Assembly (NCBI GenBank): GCA_000004985.1
Contig: GG739162.1
DNA length: 5,445 nucleotides
DNA from: Naegleria gruberi
Lineage: Eukaryota
Direction: 5' to 3' (one strand)
Position 1 is the stretch's first letter. Every line of letters starts with the position of its first letter. The notes under the pieces are model-generated. The model was not told where the DNA came from and did not search any database. It worked only from the letters and a program-made list of their open reading frames with translations. The translations under genes and the position numbers were made by a program. Positions 21-5,445 of the stretch are shown here, in pieces.

Positions 21-22
21 TT

Positions 23-95
23 TATACCCTGTGGGACTCGAACCCACAACCCCCGGCTCCGTAGGCCGATGCTCTTCCAATTGAGCCAAGGGTAC
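23..95 (-). tRNA. Nuclear-type tRNA-Arg, anticodon ACG, 73 nt without CCA
   Basis: Reverse complement reads GTACCCT-T-G-GCTC-AATTGGAA-GAGC-A-TCGGC-CTACGGA-GCCGG-GGGTT-GTGGG-TTCGAGT-CCCAC-AGGGTAT-A. This gives a 7-bp acceptor stem (G1-U72 wobble), 4-bp D stem, 5-bp anticodon stem (U27-G43 wobble), 5-nt variable loop, 5-bp T stem with TTCGAGT loop, and discriminator A. Anticodon A34-C35-G36 follows U33 and reads Arg codon CGU. The internal Pol III A box TGGCTCAATTGG lies at 77..88 and the B box GGTTCGAGTCC at 34..44 on the minus strand. No CCA is encoded, as expected for a eukaryotic gene. Confidence 0.9.
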
Positions 96-264
96 ATATG
101 GTTTTGTTTCAACATTGCTTGTCAAGAATGCTAAAATACAGGTTCAAACAATCTCACCACCCTGGCGCTCGTGAATTTCTGTCTATGATAAATGAATAGA
201 ATGAATTGCATCCGTATTACTGCTTCTGATTCGTATCCTTATGGGCCCATATCTCGCTTTCAAA

Positions 265-282: not shown

Positions 283-2360
283 TTACTTTTCATCAATTTC
301 TTCAAGGTATTTATACGATTCCTCAACCAAACCATTTTCAGAGCTTTTAAGAAACCATTCTTTTGCTTTCGAATAATCTTGGTCTATTCCAATACCTTTA
401 AAGTATAATAATGCCAAATTATATTGAGCTTGTGCATGACCTTGTTCCGCACTTCTAAGGAACAATTCAAAAGCTTTCGTATAGTCTTTCTCAACAATAT
501 GGGAACCGTTATAATAAAATAAGGCATATTGAAAAAGAGAATTAGGATCGTTGTGTACTTCACATTGTTTAAACCATTCGAAAGCTTTCTGATAATCCTG
601 TTTTTCCAAATAAATCATTCCAATATTATATTGAGCTGCGATGTGTCCATTTTCAGCAGCCTTTAAAAACAATTCCAAACCGAGGTCAATATTCTTCTCC
701 GTACCAAATCCTTGGTAATAACAGTAAGCCAAATTGAACAAAACTTCAGAATCTTCCGTTGGCATGAGTTTTGAAAGAATTTCGAATCCTTTCGAATAAT
801 CTTTAACTGTTCCAATTCCTTTCAGATATAACCATCCTAAATTAAATTGAGCATCAGTATGTCCGTTTTCAGCAGCTTTTCCCATCCAATAAAAAGCTGT
901 TTCTGCATCCCTTTCATATAGATGCAACATTAAGGCAAGATTAAATTGTGAAGATACGAATCCTTGTTCTGCACTCTTCGTATACCATTCTATAGTTTTA
1001 GAATAATCCCTCTCAACACCTCTTCCATATTCATATAATTGCGCAAGATAACCCTGAGCATTGGCATGTCCTTGTTCAGCACTTTTCATGTACCAAATAA
1101 ATGCCTGCTCAAGTTGAGATCTTCTTTCAGATTCATCCACAAATTGATCGGTTTCGTAAACAACTCCAAGATTAAATTGTGCATCAGCATATCCTTGTTC
1201 AGCACTCTTAAGAAACCAATGTTTGGCTGGTTCCATTAGGCTATTCATGTAGTATAATAGTCCAAGATTGAACTGAGCTTTGCCATGTCCTTGTTTTGCA
1301 CTTTGATCATACCAAAAAGCTGCATTAGAGATATCTTTTTCATTGTAATATAATACTCCAAGTCTGTTCTGATCATCTGCATTTCCTTCTTTTGCTCCCT
1401 TTTCTAATTCTTCTTTGGTTTTCTCTATTTTTGGTAATTTTGATAATGTTTTGATTGAATATAGAGAACTGCTTGAAACAATTTCAACAATTTTTTCATT
1501 TTGTTGAAGAGAATCATCCACAAATTGAATAGCTTCAGGATTTTGAGAAACAGCCAAATAACAAATGTCATAATTACTTCTCATCGTGTTAGATGCAAAT
1601 TGTAGAGCTATTCCTCTATTTTTAACGCTTTCAGTAACCAATTCAACATTTCCTTTCAATGTATCTGTAGCATATTGTAAATAGGTACCATCAATGTTTA
1701 CCATTTTCTTCATCTTCTCCAAATCATTGTAATCTTGGATTGTTTTCTTTGGTAACTCAAGTTTTAAATCACTCTCAAAGTTTAAATACATGACCATTTG
1801 TTTAGGAATGAGTTCTATCACTCTTGCATCCTTTTTAACTGCTTGTTCCATGACATTCTTTGAGTACTTCCATTTTTTAGAACGAATAAATTGATAGCTG
1901 CTTGCATTTTGGTTGATAGCTCTCAAAATCACATTCCTAAATTCATGCATTTCTGTAGGAACATATTTCAGATTTAATCCATCTTCACTCAAAGCAGACA
2001 TTACAACAGATTCATTGTTAAGGAACTCACTTTTCAAATTCTTATAATTTGATTCAAAGTTTTCACGGTCAATTTCAGTAGTGTCGTTAAATATTTCTTG
2101 AAATATTCTTTCATTATCCCATCTTGAATCTTGTTCCAAAGTGAGCATTCCCAAGATGATATTCTTGATTATTTTCCATGACTTGATTTCATTCTCTAGA
2201 ATCAGTAATCTTGTTTTTTCATCCAAATTTGGTAATTCTGTATTGTTAATTTCAGTAAACAATTTTTCAAATTCCTTTTCAATATAGTCTTTAGGGCAAA
2301 CTTTTTCTTTTTCAAATATTGGCATTTCATCAGAAAAAATAACTCTTAATAAAGTAACTC
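283..2360 (-). CDS. Terminal exon, including the stop at 283..285, of a multi-exon gene. It encodes the end of a protein-kinase C-lobe (subdomains IX-XI), then DUF4116-like repeats, then about 9-10 Sel1-like repeats.
   Basis: The 680-aa ORF 283..2325 stays open upstream in the same frame to 2360 (...GA GTT ACT TTA TTA AGA GTT ATT TTT TCT GAT GAA ATG CCA). An AG acceptor precedes it at 2361..2362. Joining it to the upstream exon gives DIWSFG-VTLLRVIFSDEMPIF..., the kinase subdomain IX motif DxWSFGvxLxEl. IIKNIILGMLTLEQDSRWDNERIF then matches subdomain XI. The middle of the protein (DGLNLKYVPTEMHEFRNVILRAINQNASSYQF; DGTYLQYATDTLKGNVELVTESVKNRGIALQFASNTMRSNYDICYLAVSQNPEAIQFV) matches DUF4116-type repeats. 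The C-terminal half is made of reiterated A(Q/E)xGxxxAQ(F/Y)NLGxxYxxGxGxxxDxxKAxxW(F/Y)xK(S/A)AEqG Sel1 units. The annotated Met at 2325 is internal and not the true start. Confidence 0.85.
331..1380 (-). repeat. Tandem array of about 9-10 Sel1-like (TPR-family) repeat units of ~36 aa, encoded within the terminal exon
   Basis: Reiterated protein motifs appear: GKAQFNLGLLYY, ADAQFNLGVVYE, ANAQGYLAQLYEYGRGVERDYSKTIEWYTKSAEQG, SSQFNLALMLH, TDAQFNLGWLYLKGIGTVKDYSKGFE, EVLFNLAYCYYQGFGTEKNIDLGLELFLKAAENG, IAAQYNIGMIYLEKQDYQKAFEWFKQ, SLFQYALFYYNGSHIVEKDYTKAFELFLRSAEQG and AQAQYNLALLYFKGIGIDQDYSKAKEWFLKSSENG. The matching DNA-level reiteration is visible on the plus strand as repeated gcatgtccttgttcagcac / gcatatccttgttcagcac / gccatgtccttgttttgcac / gcatgaccttgttccgcac blocks. 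Confidence 0.75.
1486..2004 (-). repeat. About 3 DUF4116-like repeat units between the kinase domain and the Sel1 array
   Basis: Protein segments carry the recurring pattern (D)GxxLxYx(s/t)xxxxxxxxVvLxAVxQNgxALQFAS, for example LKYVPTEMHEFRNVILRAINQNASSYQFI, LQYATDTLKGNVELVTESVKNRGIALQFAS and MRSNYDICYLAVSQNPEAIQFVDDSLQQNEKIV. This matches the Pfam DUF4116 repeat type. It is recognised from memory of the family consensus and is not computed. Confidence 0.55.
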
Positions 2361-2397
2361 CTTATAAGGTTAATAAAGTTATAAGCACCAAACTTAC
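2361..2397 (-). other. Spliceosomal intron, 37 nt, phase 1
   Basis: The minus strand reads GTAAGTTTGGTGCTTATAACTTTATTAACCTTATAAG, with canonical GTAAGT donor and AG acceptor. If unspliced the reading frame runs into a stop (..KFGAYNFINLIRSYFIKSYFF*). If spliced it gives a contiguous kinase subdomain IX and shifts correctly into the frame of the 680-aa ORF (G|GA = Gly). Confidence 0.75.
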
Positions 2398-2654
2398 CAA
2401 AACTCCAAATGTCACTTTTTACTGACCATTTACCAAGACCCTGATATACAATTGGATCTCTATATCCGTTAGTGCCATATTCATCACTACTTGCATAAGA
2501 ACTTTCACTTTCACTCTCAAAATCTTCTGAGTGATATTCAGATAATTCAGAGTTGATTTCATCAAGTTTACTTGCTTCTCCCAAATCTGCTATCATGATT
2601 TTAACATTATGTTTCGTCATGTTTTTAATAAAAATATTACCAGGTTTGATATCT
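2398..2654 (-). CDS. Internal exon of the same gene. It encodes the kinase catalytic loop, activation segment and start of subdomain IX: (R)DIKPGNIFIKNMTKHNVKIMIADLGEAS...GTNGYRDPIVYQGLGKWSVKSDIWSF(G).
   Basis: The ORF-track 96-aa ORF 2330..2620 is the same frame extended upstream to 2654 (A GAT ATC AAA CCT GGT AAT ATT TTT ATT AAA AAC ATG...). Joined to the upstream exon, HR + DIKPGN forms the catalytic-loop motif HRDIKPGN. Then come DLG (a DFG variant) and the TKL-like KWSVKSDIWSFG (compare KYTEKSDVYSFG). The annotated Met at 2620 is internal. Confidence 0.8.
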
Positions 2655-2700
2655 CTTTTTCGAATATATTAAAAAAGTAATATTCGAAACATCAACTTAC
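2655..2700 (-). other. Spliceosomal intron, 46 nt, phase 2
   Basis: The minus strand reads GTAAGTTGATGTTTCGAATATTACTTTTTTAATATATTCGAAAAAG, with GTAAGT donor and AG acceptor. Unspliced, the frame hits TAA immediately after ...GFIHR. Spliced, it reconstitutes ...LHGKGFIHRDIKPGNIFI (kinase subdomain VIb). The intron contains an imperfect inverted repeat, TTCGAATATTA ... TAATATATTCGAA. Confidence 0.8.
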
Positions 2701-2745
2701 CTATGAATAAACCCTTTACCATGTAACTTTTCCAATCCCAACAAA
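2701..2745 (-). CDS. Readable 3' end of an upstream exon of the same gene (kinase subdomain VIa/VIb: ...LLGLEKLHGKGFIH-R). The exon continues 5'-ward into the N gap.
   Basis: The minus strand reads T TTG TTG GGA TTG GAA AAG TTA CAT GGT AAA GGG TTT ATT CAT AG|GTAAGT. LHxxGfIHRD is the conserved pre-catalytic-loop helix and HRD motif of eukaryotic protein kinases. The ORF-track 581-aa ORF 2697..4442 is mostly X because of the gap. Its Met at 4440..4442 abuts the gap and is not a supported start. Confidence 0.7.
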
Positions 2746-4437
2746 NNNNNNNNNNNNNNNNNNNNNNNNNNNNNNNNNNNNNNNNNNNNNNNNNNNNNNN
2801 NNNNNNNNNNNNNNNNNNNNNNNNNNNNNNNNNNNNNNNNNNNNNNNNNNNNNNNNNNNNNNNNNNNNNNNNNNNNNNNNNNNNNNNNNNNNNNNNNNNN
2901 NNNNNNNNNNNNNNNNNNNNNNNNNNNNNNNNNNNNNNNNNNNNNNNNNNNNNNNNNNNNNNNNNNNNNNNNNNNNNNNNNNNNNNNNNNNNNNNNNNNN
3001 NNNNNNNNNNNNNNNNNNNNNNNNNNNNNNNNNNNNNNNNNNNNNNNNNNNNNNNNNNNNNNNNNNNNNNNNNNNNNNNNNNNNNNNNNNNNNNNNNNNN
3101 NNNNNNNNNNNNNNNNNNNNNNNNNNNNNNNNNNNNNNNNNNNNNNNNNNNNNNNNNNNNNNNNNNNNNNNNNNNNNNNNNNNNNNNNNNNNNNNNNNNN
3201 NNNNNNNNNNNNNNNNNNNNNNNNNNNNNNNNNNNNNNNNNNNNNNNNNNNNNNNNNNNNNNNNNNNNNNNNNNNNNNNNNNNNNNNNNNNNNNNNNNNN
3301 NNNNNNNNNNNNNNNNNNNNNNNNNNNNNNNNNNNNNNNNNNNNNNNNNNNNNNNNNNNNNNNNNNNNNNNNNNNNNNNNNNNNNNNNNNNNNNNNNNNN
3401 NNNNNNNNNNNNNNNNNNNNNNNNNNNNNNNNNNNNNNNNNNNNNNNNNNNNNNNNNNNNNNNNNNNNNNNNNNNNNNNNNNNNNNNNNNNNNNNNNNNN
3501 NNNNNNNNNNNNNNNNNNNNNNNNNNNNNNNNNNNNNNNNNNNNNNNNNNNNNNNNNNNNNNNNNNNNNNNNNNNNNNNNNNNNNNNNNNNNNNNNNNNN
3601 NNNNNNNNNNNNNNNNNNNNNNNNNNNNNNNNNNNNNNNNNNNNNNNNNNNNNNNNNNNNNNNNNNNNNNNNNNNNNNNNNNNNNNNNNNNNNNNNNNNN
3701 NNNNNNNNNNNNNNNNNNNNNNNNNNNNNNNNNNNNNNNNNNNNNNNNNNNNNNNNNNNNNNNNNNNNNNNNNNNNNNNNNNNNNNNNNNNNNNNNNNNN
3801 NNNNNNNNNNNNNNNNNNNNNNNNNNNNNNNNNNNNNNNNNNNNNNNNNNNNNNNNNNNNNNNNNNNNNNNNNNNNNNNNNNNNNNNNNNNNNNNNNNNN
3901 NNNNNNNNNNNNNNNNNNNNNNNNNNNNNNNNNNNNNNNNNNNNNNNNNNNNNNNNNNNNNNNNNNNNNNNNNNNNNNNNNNNNNNNNNNNNNNNNNNNN
4001 NNNNNNNNNNNNNNNNNNNNNNNNNNNNNNNNNNNNNNNNNNNNNNNNNNNNNNNNNNNNNNNNNNNNNNNNNNNNNNNNNNNNNNNNNNNNNNNNNNNN
4101 NNNNNNNNNNNNNNNNNNNNNNNNNNNNNNNNNNNNNNNNNNNNNNNNNNNNNNNNNNNNNNNNNNNNNNNNNNNNNNNNNNNNNNNNNNNNNNNNNNNN
4201 NNNNNNNNNNNNNNNNNNNNNNNNNNNNNNNNNNNNNNNNNNNNNNNNNNNNNNNNNNNNNNNNNNNNNNNNNNNNNNNNNNNNNNNNNNNNNNNNNNNN
4301 NNNNNNNNNNNNNNNNNNNNNNNNNNNNNNNNNNNNNNNNNNNNNNNNNNNNNNNNNNNNNNNNNNNNNNNNNNNNNNNNNNNNNNNNNNNNNNNNNNNN
4401 NNNNNNNNNNNNNNNNNNNNNNNNNNNNNNNNNNNNN
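2746..4437. other. Run of 1,692 N, an assembly gap or hard-masked segment
   Basis: Uninterrupted n characters are read directly from the sequence. On the minus strand the gap interrupts the kinase gene immediately 5' of subdomain VIa. Confidence 1.
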
Positions 4438-4442
4438 CTCAT

Positions 4443-4600
4443 TAAGTGTATTTCAAATGACTGAAAATAATGTCGAACTAATTAAGGAATATTTAGTTTA
4501 TGGATCTCATTTGAGAATTGATAAAAGAAATGGTCATTTACTTTTATGTGGAGGAAATAGTAAATATATTAAAGTTTATAATTGAATTGAATCAATTGAC
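4443..4600 (-). promoter_or_regulatory. 158-bp AT-rich intergenic spacer. It lies between the stop of the upstream GPI-anchored-protein gene and the gap-truncated 5' region of the kinase gene. It presumably holds the 3' UTR/poly(A) site of the former and the promoter/5' UTR of the latter.
   Basis: No ORF is conserved across it. A stop (TAA) lies in the kinase frame about 20 codons before the gap edge. Positional inference only. Confidence 0.3.
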
Positions 4601-5445
4601 TTAAAACTGGATAATGAAAATTAAACTAAGCAACAGCAATAACATTAAGGAACAAGCAAAATTTCCATTCGATTCTCCAACTCTTTCACTTGAAGTACTT
4701 CCACTACCTTTCACACCACTATTCGCTGTTGTTGGTTGACTACTTTTAACAGGAGTGACATTTGAAGTTGAAGCTGTCACATTTACAACAGGAGTATTAG
4801 TAGTGTAGTACGGTCCTAACCAATAAGCTGGAAGAGCTTCTCCATGAGGACCAAACATGACAGCAGCTGATTTACCATCACTTCTAGTATTAGCTCTGTA
4901 AGTGACATTTCTTGCTGACATGATCAAATCATATTGATCATTTCTATGAATAATATATTGATTATTTTCAATAATTATATCAGTAATACGTTCTGGATAT
5001 GCACCATTTTGAGGAGAAATCATTGAAACCCAAACATTGTTATCCTGCAAGCTTCCCAAAATGTTATTCGAAATGACATTAAATTGAGTAATCCAACCAT
5101 TAGTTGACAAGGTAGCATTATCATTATACCATAGAGAATCATTCCTTGCACCAGAATGCATTTTAAAAGAGTGGTATCCTCCATCAATTGAAACCCCAGC
5201 AAAATGATTATGTCCAAAGAAAGTTTTGTAACATTGGGTGCATCTCATATTGTGAAATTTCGTATACTTGGCATAGTTTCCCATAAATGCAGATTTAGCA
5301 ATGGACCCAAAGAAATTTCCCTGTGTAGTTGCTGTATTACCAACTGCAATATTGTCGATGTAGAAGAATTCTTGAGGATTGTAAAATGAAGAAATTGGAA
5401 TTCTTCTATAAGGATCATCAAATATCCAATAATAAGGTTCGCCAA
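4601..5445 (-). CDS. 5'-partial gene for a secreted, N-glycosylated, Ser/Thr-rich protein with a C-terminal GPI-anchor-like signal. Its N-terminal ~230-aa globular domain is unassigned. The stop is at 4601..4603.
   Basis: The ORF-track 227-aa ORF 4601..5284 stays open in the same frame to the window edge. There is no stop and no ATG upstream of 5284. The first full codon starts at 5443 and reads GEPYYWIFDDPYRRIPISSFYNPQEFFYIDNIAVGNTATTQGNFFGSIAKSAF-MGNYAKY.... The C-terminus has a Ser/Thr/Asn/Val-rich low-complexity stalk (TTNTPVVNVTASTSNVTPVKSSQPTTANSGVKGSGSTSS). After small residues (ESNGN) the protein ends in a hydrophobic tail, FACSLMLLLLLSLIFIIQF*. That is the classic omega site plus hydrophobic GPI signal of fungal cell-wall proteins. 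Several N-x-S/T sequons are present: NDS, NAT and NVT three times. Confidence 0.75.
   Translation of the reverse strand, partial: GEPYYWIFDDPYRRIPISSFYNPQEFFYIDNIAVGNTATTQGNFFGSIAKSAFMGNYAKYTKFHNMRCTQCYKTFFGHNHFAGVSIDGGYHSFKMHSGARNDSLWYNDNATLSTNGWITQFNVISNNILGSLQDNNVWVSMISPQNGAYPERITDIIIENNQYIIHRNDQYDLIMSARNVTYRANTRSDGKSAAVMFGPHGEALPAYWLGPYYTTNTPVVNVTASTSNVTPVKSSQPTTANSGVKGSGSTSSERVGESNGNFACSLMLLLLLSLIFIIQF

What the first reader, a model, noticed from the sequence alone, without database searches (positions are those of the whole stretch)
2453..2587. Atypical kinase activation segment: DLG for DFG, a ~25-aa acidic Ser/Glu-rich insert, and a degenerate APE motif
Between the Mg-binding motif (IADLGEA, where DFG has become DLG) and the P+1 region (GTNGYRDPIV) sits the insert SKLDEINSELSEYHSEDFESESESSYASSDEY. 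It is packed with S-x-x-E/D and S-E repeats, a CK2-type phospho-acceptor context, plus tyrosines. The canonical APE glutamate, which salt-bridges to the subdomain XI arginine, appears to be replaced (RDPI), although an R is retained in DSRWDNERIF. The catalytic HRD and the K of DIKPGN are intact. The protein could therefore be an active but unusually regulated kinase, for example by hierarchical priming phosphorylation of the acidic loop, or a diverging pseudokinase. The N-lobe (Gly-loop, VAIK Lys, alphaC Glu) that would settle this lies in the N gap.
Basis: partly seen in the sequence, partly recalled or inferred. Interest (0 to 1): 0.5.

Follow-up and report, generated by a model that had tools for sequence, protein, structure and literature searches.

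The report
Naegleria kinase with acidic activation-loop insert
This is the rear half of a protein kinase gene from the amoeba Naegleria gruberi whose regulatory loop carries a short, species-specific acidic/serine-rich expansion and two known motif variants (DLG, DP-x); it is a divergent but ordinary protist kinase, and its activity cannot be judged because the front half lies in an assembly gap.

Summary
Window 2453-2587 (minus strand) reads DLGEASKLDEINSELSEYHSEDFESESESSYASSDEYGTNGYRDP, inside a kinase C-lobe (Pfam Pkinase E=2.7e-16). The window is a whole 5445-bp Naegleria gruberi scaffold. The gene encodes kinase + 4 DUF4116 + about 8 Sel1 repeats.

After splicing two short GTAAGT..AG introns, HRD, the DxKxxN lysine and asparagine, the DLG aspartate, GT, the subdomain IX Asp and the subdomain XI Arg are all present. 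The APE glutamate is Ile.

- The activation segment is 46 aa, against 27-40 (median 29) in the fetched kinases. The true insertion is about 14-17 aa (EYHSEDFESESESS), not 25-32.
- The insertion contains a (GAAAGT)3 repeat, which suggests slippage.
- Only 3 serines fit strict S-x-x-D/E.
- DLG occurs in active RIPK1.
- The G[ST]xGYxDP[non-E] motif recurs in the nearest relatives, which are streptophyte RLK/Pelle kinases.

An exhaustive search found no orthologue or paralogue carrying the insert.

Most likely this is a lineage-specific low-complexity expansion in a tolerant loop of a probably active Ser/Thr kinase. Pseudokinase status cannot be tested, because the N-lobe is in the gap. Low interest.

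The parts
2701..2745 (-). Partial exon abutting the N gap. It encodes LLGLEKLHGKGFIH + the first two bases of the Arg codon (alphaE helix and the start of HRD).
   Evidence: Donor AG|GTAAGT. Splicing restores FIHRDIKPGN in frame.
2655..2700 (-). Intron 1: 46 nt, GTAAGT...AAAAAG, 22% GC. Not in the public gene model.
2398..2654 (-). Exon encoding the catalytic loop, the activation segment, the P+1 loop and subdomain IX (DIKPGN...SDIWSF).
   Evidence: Pfam Pkinase. PDB alignments.
2636..2705 (-). Catalytic loop HRDIKPGN, split by intron 1. The Asp, the Ser/Thr-type Lys and the Asn are all present.
   Evidence: H14, R15, D16 and N21 are invariant columns in A1.
2579..2587 (-). DLG (the DFG-equivalent). 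The Mg-binding Asp is kept and Phe is replaced by Leu.
   Evidence: RIPK1 aligns as IADLGLAS. RIPK1 DLG motif in PMC9554302.
2576..2578 (-). Glu at the DFG+1 position (E41). Unusual: it is hydrophobic or small in all 55 fetched kinase domains.
2450..2587 (-). Whole activation segment, DLG...DPI, 46 aa.
2498..2539 (-). The real insertion by alignment: the 14-aa acidic/Ser block EYHSEDFESESESS.
   Evidence: MAFFT alignment A1, columns 59-72. Coordinates.
2501..2519 (-). Hexanucleotide tandem repeat, 3.2 copies of ACTTTC on the + strand (GAAAGT on the coding strand), encoding ESESES. A slippage signature inside the insert.
   Evidence: Tandem Repeats Finder.
2450..2476 (-). P+1 loop and APE-equivalent, GTNGYRDPI. 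APE has become DPI (2450-2458): Pro kept, Ala to Asp, Glu to Ile.
   Evidence: G75 and P82 are invariant; T76 and Y79 are nearly invariant in A1.
2361..2397 (-). Intron 2: 37 nt, GTAAGT...TATAAG, 27% GC. The public model uses a more distal AG instead, giving a 94-nt intron.
2305..2398 (-). Codons for GVTLLRVIFSDEMPIFEKE (start of alphaF; the span is interrupted by intron 2). Dropped by the public model but conserved in kinases.
   Evidence: P0001 sequence against alignments (G101 and V102 nearly invariant).
2122..2124 (-). Subdomain XI arginine (R180 in DSRWD), the normal ion-pair partner of the APE Glu.
   Evidence: R180 is an invariant column in A1. Coordinates. Role from PMC3415842.
283..2360 (-). 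Last exon: the rest of the C-lobe, 4 DUF4116 repeats (approximately 1440-2020), about 8 Sel1 repeats (approximately 286-1375), and the TAA stop at 283-285.
2746..4437 (.). Assembly gap of 1692 N. It hides the N-lobe (Gly loop, VAIK Lys, alphaC Glu) and the 5' end of the gene.

Best explanation
The segment is the activation loop of a eukaryotic-type Ser/Thr protein kinase encoded by a lineage-specific Naegleria gruberi gene (kinase - DUF4116 x4 - Sel1 x about 8).

The C-lobe keeps every catalytic and structural invariant that can be seen: the HRD Asp, the DxKxxN Lys and Asn, the DLG Asp, the GT Thr, the subdomain IX Asp and the subdomain XI Arg. I therefore infer a catalytically competent RD-type kinase.

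The acidic/serine-rich stretch is a low-complexity expansion of about 14-17 aa, generated at least partly by replication slippage of a GAAAGT hexamer. It sits in the surface-exposed, insertion-tolerant middle of the activation loop and is probably disordered.

The flanks are ordinary loop. S70 and S71 align with the Ser/Thr phospho-acceptor positions of RLK/Pelle relatives, and D72/E73 sit at the position equivalent to the PKA Thr197 site. The loop may therefore be autophosphorylated, or partly phosphomimetic.

DLG (as in RIPK1) and DP-x (as in the nearest relatives) are family-type motif variants, not decay.

Shown: the sequence, the splice model, domain identity, the alignment position of the insert, its uniqueness in the databases, and its coding potential.
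Inferred: catalytic competence, disorder, a slippage origin, and any regulatory role.
For: - Peptide and coordinates.
- Organism and public model: (P0001, 'predicted protein [Naegleria gruberi]', 100% identity, contig length 5445).
- Splice model restoring HRD and alphaF.
- Domains: (Pkinase 2.7e-16, DUF4116 1.9e-31, Sel1 1.5e-65).
- Invariant columns H14, R15, D16, N21, G40, G75, P82, D96, R180, and a single 14-aa gap block opposite EYHSEDFESESESS.
- Segment length 46 aa against 27-40 (median 29) in 55 domains.
- Hexamer repeat at 2501-2519.
- Most extreme S/D/E content and lowest entropy in the protein.
- RIPK1 aligns with DLG and a long loop. Its DLG motif is described in PMC9554302.
- Exhaustive phmmer of the exon against 1.84 billion representatives found only itself plus 7 streptophyte RLK/Pelle proteins carrying G[ST]xGYxDP[I/V/L/D/Y/E], and none with the insert.
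- The insert has exon-like GC (33% against 22-27% for the introns) and in-frame coding potential.
Against: - The N-lobe is unseen, so the VAIK Lys, the alphaC Glu and the Gly loop may be missing.
- The APE Glu, half of the buried Glu208-Arg280 ion pair called a hallmark of EPKs, is Ile. Mutating that pair strongly impairs PKA (PMC3415842).
- Glu at DFG+1 is not seen in any of the 55 fetched kinase domains and lies next to the phospho-acceptor pocket.
- There are no orthologues, so neither conservation of the insert nor purifying selection could be measured.
- There is no transcript or protein evidence.
Confidence: 0.6

Rival explanations
1. Pseudokinase or scaffold. The kinase fold is kept but catalysis is lost or vestigial, and the domain serves as a docking module for the DUF4116/Sel1 repeat arrays. 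Loss of the APE Glu, the acidic DFG+1 residue and the loop expansion would reflect relaxed constraint on catalysis.
For: - APE Glu replaced by Ile while the Arg is kept. The ion pair matters for PKA activity (PMC3415842).
- Glu at DFG+1 in 0 of 55 comparison domains.
- Three insertions relative to relatives: 4 aa between beta7 and beta8, 14 aa in the activation loop, 11 aa between alphaG and alphaH.
- No detectable orthologue, so the gene is evolving fast.
Against: - Both catalytic aspartates, the catalytic-loop Lys/Asn and the other C-lobe invariants are intact. The usual pseudokinase criterion, loss of the VAIK Lys, the HRD Asp or the DFG Asp, is not met for the two residues that can be seen.
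- DLG works in RIPK1.
- The 792-codon reading frame is open.
Confidence: 0.22
2. The acidic Ser-rich loop is a dedicated switch, phosphorylated hierarchically by a CK2-like acidophilic kinase or by autophosphorylation, that gates activity.
For: - 10 Ser and 3 Tyr in 32 aa, with 11 acidic residues.
- 3 strict S-x-x-D/E sites and 3 S-x-x-S sites.
- It is an RD kinase, so control by the activation loop is expected (established knowledge).
- S70 and S71 align with RLK activation-loop Ser/Thr.
Against: - Any acidic Ser-rich low-complexity tract matches this consensus by composition.
- Only 3 of the 10 Ser are strict sites.
- The core of the tract is a hexamer repeat.
- No homologue conserves it.
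- No phosphorylation data are available.
Confidence: 0.13
3. Annotation artefact. Part of the 'insert' is an unrecognised in-frame intron (GTAAAC...CAG, 45 nt, 2527-2571). Removing it would give DLGEAKDFESES... and a normal 31-aa activation segment.
For: A GT..AG candidate of a length typical for this gene (45 nt, against 37 and 46 nt) exists. It keeps the frame and would restore a normal segment length and a DxGxAK-like start.
Against: - The donor GTAAAC lacks the +5 G and +6 T that both real introns share (GTAAGT), and it has A rather than G at -1.
- GC is 31%, like the exons (32%) and unlike the introns (22-27%).
- In-frame codon log-likelihood is 0.568 per codon, at the 68th percentile of true coding windows, and is exceeded by only 0.2% of noncoding or out-of-frame windows.
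- The public model keeps the region as coding.
Confidence: 0.04

Closest known systems
RIPK1 (human receptor-interacting Ser/Thr kinase 1, TKL group)
   Same: It has a natural DLG in place of DFG (IADLGLAS against IADLGEAS), an HRD/HKD-type catalytic loop with Lys and Asn, and a long activation segment (41 aa) that aligns end to end with only about 9 gap positions. It is the best continuous PDB alignment, at 35.3 bits and E=8.8e-8. The DLG motif is documented in PMC9554302.
   Different: RIPK1 keeps APE (YMAPE) and a hydrophobic DFG+1 residue. Its loop is not an acidic low-complexity tract, and its partner domains are RHIM and a death domain, not DUF4116/Sel1. The score is no better than for Cdc7, GCN2 or SYMRK, so this is a resemblance and not orthology.
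Streptophyte RLK/Pelle (IRAK-like) kinases, e.g. Closterium GJP75199/GJP41065, Erigeron XP_043623694, Perilla malectin/receptor-like kinase KAH6791931
   Same: These are the only proteins besides the gene itself that reach E<1e-3 in an exhaustive search with the exon (names). They share the G[ST]xGYxDPx[Y] P+1 motif, often without the Glu (DPI, DPV, DPL, DPD, DPY), followed by ...KSD[IV][WY]SFGV.
   Different: They have DFG with a hydrophobic +1 residue and 29-32-aa segments without the acidic block. Identity is only 23-32% over the C-lobe. Their domain contexts differ (malectin, tandem kinase domains). The hits were selected by similarity to a DPI-containing query, so the frequency of non-Glu forms among them is biased.
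Cdc7 kinase inserts (yeast Cdc7, PDB 7p5z)
   Same: A large insertion between the DFG and the P+1/APE region. The top PDB hit is split into two stretches on either side of the insert (query 3-54 and 70-117; chain 150-198 and 275-321).
   Different: The Cdc7 insert is about 75 aa and, from prior knowledge rather than this analysis, conserved in that family and linked to Dbf4 binding. Cdc7 keeps DFG and APE (FRAPE). Here the insert is about 14-17 aa, repetitive and unconserved.
Kinase-Sel1 fusion proteins (Rhizophagus irregularis TKL-Sel1, bacterial Hanks kinase-Sel1)
   Same: The architecture of an N-terminal kinase followed by a C-terminal Sel1 array recurs among the Sel1-driven hits. The Rhizophagus protein P0096 also has DP-nonGlu (FVDPR).
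   Different: These were matched through the Sel1 repeats only. None has DUF4116 in its precomputed Pfam list. Their kinase domains have DFG and 28-30-aa segments. A common origin for the kinase domains was not shown.

Membership tests
Eukaryotic protein kinase superfamily (Pfam PF00069 Pkinase) | Profile match above the curated threshold | tested here: met
   60.2 bits against a cut-off of 31.7, E=2.7e-16, profile positions 109-260 of 263, i.e. the C-lobe only.
Eukaryotic protein kinase superfamily (Pfam PF00069 Pkinase) | Catalytic loop HRDxKxxN with the catalytic Asp, Lys and Asn | tested here: met
   FIHRDIKPGN after splicing. H14, R15, D16 and N21 are invariant in A1.
Eukaryotic protein kinase superfamily (Pfam PF00069 Pkinase) | DFG motif with the Mg-binding Asp | tested here: met
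   The Asp and Gly are present as DLG. Phe to Leu also occurs in RIPK1.
Eukaryotic protein kinase superfamily (Pfam PF00069 Pkinase) | APE Glu paired with the subdomain XI Arg (Glu208-Arg280 of PKA) | tested here: not met
   The Glu position is Ile83 (DPI). The Arg is present (R180, an invariant column). The ion pair is described as an EPK hallmark in PMC3415842.
Eukaryotic protein kinase superfamily (Pfam PF00069 Pkinase) | Gly-rich loop, VAIK Lys, alphaC Glu (N-lobe) | not testable with these tools
   The sequence lies in the 1692-N gap at 2746-4437. No alternative contig was found.
TKL group / RLK-Pelle-IRAK-like kinases | Closest sequence relatives belong to the group, and group-specific profiles score best | tested here: inconclusive
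   The exhaustive search hits are all RLK/Pelle, and RIPK1 and SYMRK are among the top PDB hits. But Cdc7, GCN2, FUS3 and LKB1 score within 5 bits, and Pfam PK_Tyr_Ser-Thr (28.1 bits) scores well below Pkinase (60.2 bits). Only half a domain is available.
Pseudokinase | Loss of at least one of the VAIK Lys, the HRD Asp or the DFG Asp | tested here: inconclusive
   The HRD Asp and the DLG Asp are present. The Lys is not visible because of the gap.
CK2-type acidophilic phosphorylation cluster | Ser/Thr with an acidic residue at +3 (S/T-x-x-D/E), and demonstrated phosphorylation | tested here: inconclusive
   There are 3 strict sites (S43, S62, S70) and 3 S-x-x-S sites in the 32-aa stretch. This is what the composition alone would give. 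Phosphorylation cannot be tested here.
Sel1-repeat / DUF4116 repeat proteins (C-terminal part of the same gene) | Pfam PF08238 and PF13475 matches above threshold | tested here: met
   Sel1: 215.7 bits, 7 stretches. DUF4116: 107.8 bits, 4 stretches. Eight [AS][AS][EK][QN]G repeat cores were counted.

The most novel reading that the evidence does not exclude
The combination of DLG, Glu at DFG+1, an acidic Ser/Tyr-rich loop and DPI may define a distinct way of building an activation segment. In this reading, Asp81 (the 'A' position of APE) replaces the lost Glu as partner of the buried subdomain XI Arg. The acidic loop acts as a built-in phosphomimetic or pseudosubstrate whose occupancy of the basic RD pocket is tuned by multisite phosphorylation. 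All seven DP-nonGlu relatives examined also carry Asp at that position, but they were selected by similarity to the query.
Probability: 0.08. Interest if true: 0.45.

Novelty: new member of a known kind. Interest (0 to 1): 0.15.

Why it matters
It matters little beyond annotation. The analysis shows that the public Naegleria gruberi model for this gene is truncated at the gap, misses one intron and uses a wrong acceptor that deletes 19 conserved kinase residues. It also documents a kinase-DUF4116-Sel1 architecture in a heterolobosean.

The activation-loop features are individually known kinds of natural variation: DLG in RIPK1, DP-x in RLK/Pelle-like kinases, and low-complexity loop insertions in protist kinases.

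If the enzyme proved active, it would be one more example that the 'hallmark' APE Glu-Arg ion pair is dispensable in some lineages. That would be of modest interest to kinase structural biologists.

Tried and rejected
1. Word-indexed protein searches with the kinase C-lobe and with the kinase C-terminus plus DUF4116 returned nothing. They failed to return even P0001, which contains most of both queries, so I do not count them as evidence of absence.
2. Exact look-ups of the 680-aa ORF and of P0001 in the assembly collection, done to find a gap-free contig, found nothing on record.
3. Scans of metagenome and viral contigs for relatives gave pattern hits but no tblastn-confirmed relative.
I therefore searched with the exon-2 translation only (86 aa), which limits sensitivity: only 8 hits reached E<1e-3. 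No 3D model or disorder estimate was obtained.
5. A cryptic in-frame intron inside the insert was considered and rejected on donor sequence, GC content and coding potential.
6. Literature searches for DUF4116+Sel1+kinase and for a Naegleria kinome/TKL description gave nothing relevant.
7. The kinase-Sel1 proteins among the Sel1-driven hits were inspected. Their kinase domains are canonical (DFG, 28-30-aa loops) and not demonstrably related.

Full report
WHAT THE WINDOW IS

The 5445-base window has 32.7% GC and contains one run of 1692 N at 2746-4437. A protein search with the long minus-strand reading frame returned a 100%-identical 748-aa 'predicted protein [Naegleria gruberi]' (P0001), whose longest contig is 5445 bases. 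The window is therefore a whole small scaffold of the N. gruberi assembly.

CHECK OF THE OBSERVATION

The exon around it reads DIKPGNIFIKNMTKHNVKIMIADLGEAS...GTNGYRDPIVYQGLGKWSVKSDIWSF.

Two short introns with identical GTAAGT donors join three exons in frame:
- Intron 1, 2655-2700, 46 nt. Removing it restores FIHR|DIKPGN.
- Intron 2, 2361-2397, 37 nt. Removing it restores SDIWSF|GVTLLRVIFSDEMPIF.

The result is a 792-codon open frame ending at the TAA at 283-285.

Pfam identifies:
- a Pkinase C-lobe: 60.2 bits, cut-off 31.7, E=2.7e-16, profile positions 109-260;
- four DUF4116 repeats: E=1.9e-31;
- a Sel1 array: E=1.5e-65.

The public model P0001 starts at the Met of MTKHNV. It uses a more distal acceptor that deletes GVTLLRVIFSDEMPIFEKE. 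Those 19 residues align with the conserved ...SFGVVLFEVL... of other kinases, so the proximal acceptor is the better model.

WHERE THE INSERT REALLY IS

- Invariant columns are H14, R15, D16, N21, G40, G75, P82, D96 and R180.
- The only large gap block in the activation segment lies opposite EYHSEDFESESESS (aa 54-67, window 2498-2539).
- From the Asp of DLG to the APE-Glu position the segment is 46 aa. The nearest relatives have 28-32 aa, and 55 fetched kinase domains have 27-40 with a median of 29.

The excess is therefore about 14-17 aa, not 25-32.
- ASKLDEINSEL aligns with the stretch that follows DFG in every kinase.
- SYASSDEY aligns with the ...HVSTKVKGT stretch of RLK-type kinases. That places S70 and S71 on the columns of their Ser/Thr residues.
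- D72/E73 fall three and two residues before the GT glycine. From knowledge of PKA numbering, this is where Thr197 sits.

At the DNA level the block contains 3.2 copies of a hexamer (GAAAGT on the coding strand, 2501-2519) that encodes ESESES. This is a signature of replication slippage.

The 32-aa stretch is the most S/D/E-rich window of the protein (66% against a mean of 23%, sd 10%) and also its lowest-entropy window. Only three serines satisfy strict S/T-x-x-D/E, with three more fitting S-x-x-S. The 'CK2 context' is no more than the composition implies.

IS THE INSERT PERHAPS NOT PROTEIN?

An in-frame GTAAAC...CAG candidate intron of 45 nt (2527-2571) would reduce the segment to a normal 31 aa. 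I reject it for four reasons:
- Its donor lacks the +5 G and +6 T shared by both real introns.
- Its GC (31%) matches the exons (32%), not the introns (22-27%).
- Its in-frame codon log-likelihood is 0.568 per codon. That is the 68th percentile of genuine coding windows of this scaffold, and only 0.2% of noncoding or out-of-frame windows exceed it.
- The public model also keeps it as coding.

THE MOTIF VARIANTS

DLG. phmmer against the PDB gives near-equal top scores to Cdc7 (35.6 bits, split on either side of its own large insert), RIPK1 (35.3), GCN2 (32.1), SYMRK (31.6), FUS3 (31.3) and LKB1 (30.7). RIPK1 is an active kinase. It aligns as IKIADLGLAS and has a 41-aa segment only about 9 positions shorter than this one. 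Its DLG motif is standard in the inhibitor literature (PMC9554302). Phe to Leu is therefore a known functional variant.

DPI for APE. The Glu of APE forms a buried ion pair with the subdomain XI Arg. That pair is described as a hallmark of eukaryotic protein kinases, and mutating it strongly impairs PKA (PMC3415842). Here the Arg is kept: R180 in DSRWD, at 2122-2124, an invariant column. The Glu is Ile.

An exhaustive phmmer of the 86-aa exon translation against 1.84 billion representatives found only the gene itself and seven other proteins at E<1e-3. All seven are streptophyte RLK/Pelle-type kinases, from Closterium, Zostera, Erigeron, Cocos and a Perilla malectin/receptor-like kinase. They share G[ST]xGYxDPx, frequently without Glu: DPI, DPV, DPL, DPD, DPY. 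For example, Closterium has [27 protein letters not shown], against GTNGYRDPIVYQGLGKWSVKSDIWSFGV in the window. The 'degenerate APE' is thus a recurring variant. The caveat is that these hits were selected by similarity to a DPI query.

The residue after DLG is Glu (E41, 2576-2578). All 55 comparison domains have L, V, Y, I, S or A there. From established knowledge, DFG+1 lines the phospho-acceptor pocket, so this is the most unusual single residue.

There are also two further insertions relative to relatives: 4 aa between beta7 and beta8 (NMTK), and 11 aa between alphaG and alphaH (TEINNTELPNL).

RELATIVES AND CONSERVATION

No orthologue or paralogue carrying the insert was found.
- The exhaustive search returned no other Naegleria protein.
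- The search with the long exon returned, after the gene itself, only Sel1-driven hits of 26-42% identity. None of them has DUF4116 in its precomputed Pfam list.
- Metagenome and viral contig scans found no relative.
- Two word-indexed searches returned nothing at all. They missed P0001 itself, so I disregard them.

What can be said is that the block is unique to this gene in the collections searched.

MECHANISM

I consider it most likely (0.6) that this is a catalytically competent RD-type Ser/Thr kinase. Its activation loop has acquired a lineage-specific, probably disordered, acidic/Ser low-complexity expansion by slippage, at the loop position that tolerates insertions. The canonical phospho-acceptor columns are kept (S70/S71), and acidic residues at the primary-site position could make the loop partly phosphomimetic.

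The steps that are shown:
- the sequence and the splicing logic;
- domain identity;
- integrity of the C-lobe invariants;
- the position and size of the insert;
- the hexamer repeat;
- coding potential;
- absence of homologues with the block.

The steps that are inferred:
- catalytic activity;
- disorder;
- the slippage origin;
- any regulation.

Rivals:
- Pseudokinase or scaffold, 0.22. In favour are the lost APE Glu, the Glu at DFG+1 and the fast divergence. Against are the intact catalytic residues.
It is compatible with the sequence but has no support beyond composition.
- A cryptic intron, 0.04. The evidence above argues against it.

COMPARISON WITH KNOWN FAMILIES

The protein passes the ePK tests that can be applied. 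The exception is the APE Glu, which is not met, and the N-lobe residues, which cannot be tested.

Assignment to TKL or RLK-Pelle is inconclusive. The nearest database relatives are RLK/Pelle, and RIPK1 and SYMRK rank high. However, kinases of other groups score within 5 bits, and Pfam Pkinase outscores PK_Tyr_Ser-Thr.

The closest functional analogies are:
- RIPK1, for DLG and a long loop;
- Cdc7, for an insert between DFG and APE;
- DP-x RLK-like kinases, for the P+1 motif.

VERDICT

This is a new, orphan member of a known kind: a divergent protist protein kinase with a low-complexity loop expansion. Interest is low. The useful by-products are a corrected gene model and the kinase-DUF4116-Sel1 architecture.

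Noticed in passing
window 22-96 (-): A tRNA-Arg (anticodon ACG) gene lies about 190 bp downstream of the kinase gene's stop codon, on the same strand (ARAGORN).
   Followed up: no
window 2305-2398 and 2655-2705 (-): The public N. gruberi protein model (P0001, 748 aa) is truncated. It starts at the Met of MTKHNV and so misses the upstream exon and the 46-nt intron. It also uses a distal acceptor that deletes 19 conserved kinase residues, GVTLLRVIFSDEMPIFEKE.
   Followed up: yes
window 2576-2578, 2612-2623 and 2224-2256 (-): The same kinase domain has further atypical features. Glu sits at DFG+1, seen in 0 of 55 comparison domains. There is a 4-aa insertion (NMTK) between beta7 and beta8, and an 11-aa insertion (TEINNTELPNL) in the alphaG-alphaH region.
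   Followed up: partly
window 283-2020 (-): The kinase is fused to four DUF4116 repeats and about eight Sel1 repeats. After the gene itself, none of the other 119 listed hits to this region combines DUF4116 with Sel1. Kinase-Sel1 fusions do recur there, in bacterial Hanks-type kinases and in a Rhizophagus irregularis protein with FVDPR in place of APE.
   Followed up: partly
window 4438-4584 (+): A plus-strand reading frame is open from the edge of the gap to a TGA stop: SLSVFQMTENNVELIKEYLVYGSHLRIDKRNGHLLLCGGNSKYIKVYN*. It may be the 3' end of another gene hidden in the gap, convergent with the next gene. It has no Pfam match.
   Followed up: partly
window 4601-5445 (-): A partial gene runs off the right end of the window. 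It encodes at least 280 aa with a Ser/Thr-rich stretch followed by a hydrophobic C-terminus (...NFACSLMLLLLLSLIFIIQF*), which looks like a secreted or GPI-anchored surface protein. It has no significant Pfam match; the best is E=0.2.
   Followed up: partly
tools: Two word-indexed protein searches returned 'none scored', even though the database contains P0001, which includes most of both queries verbatim. Negative results from that tool should not be read as absence.
   Followed up: partly
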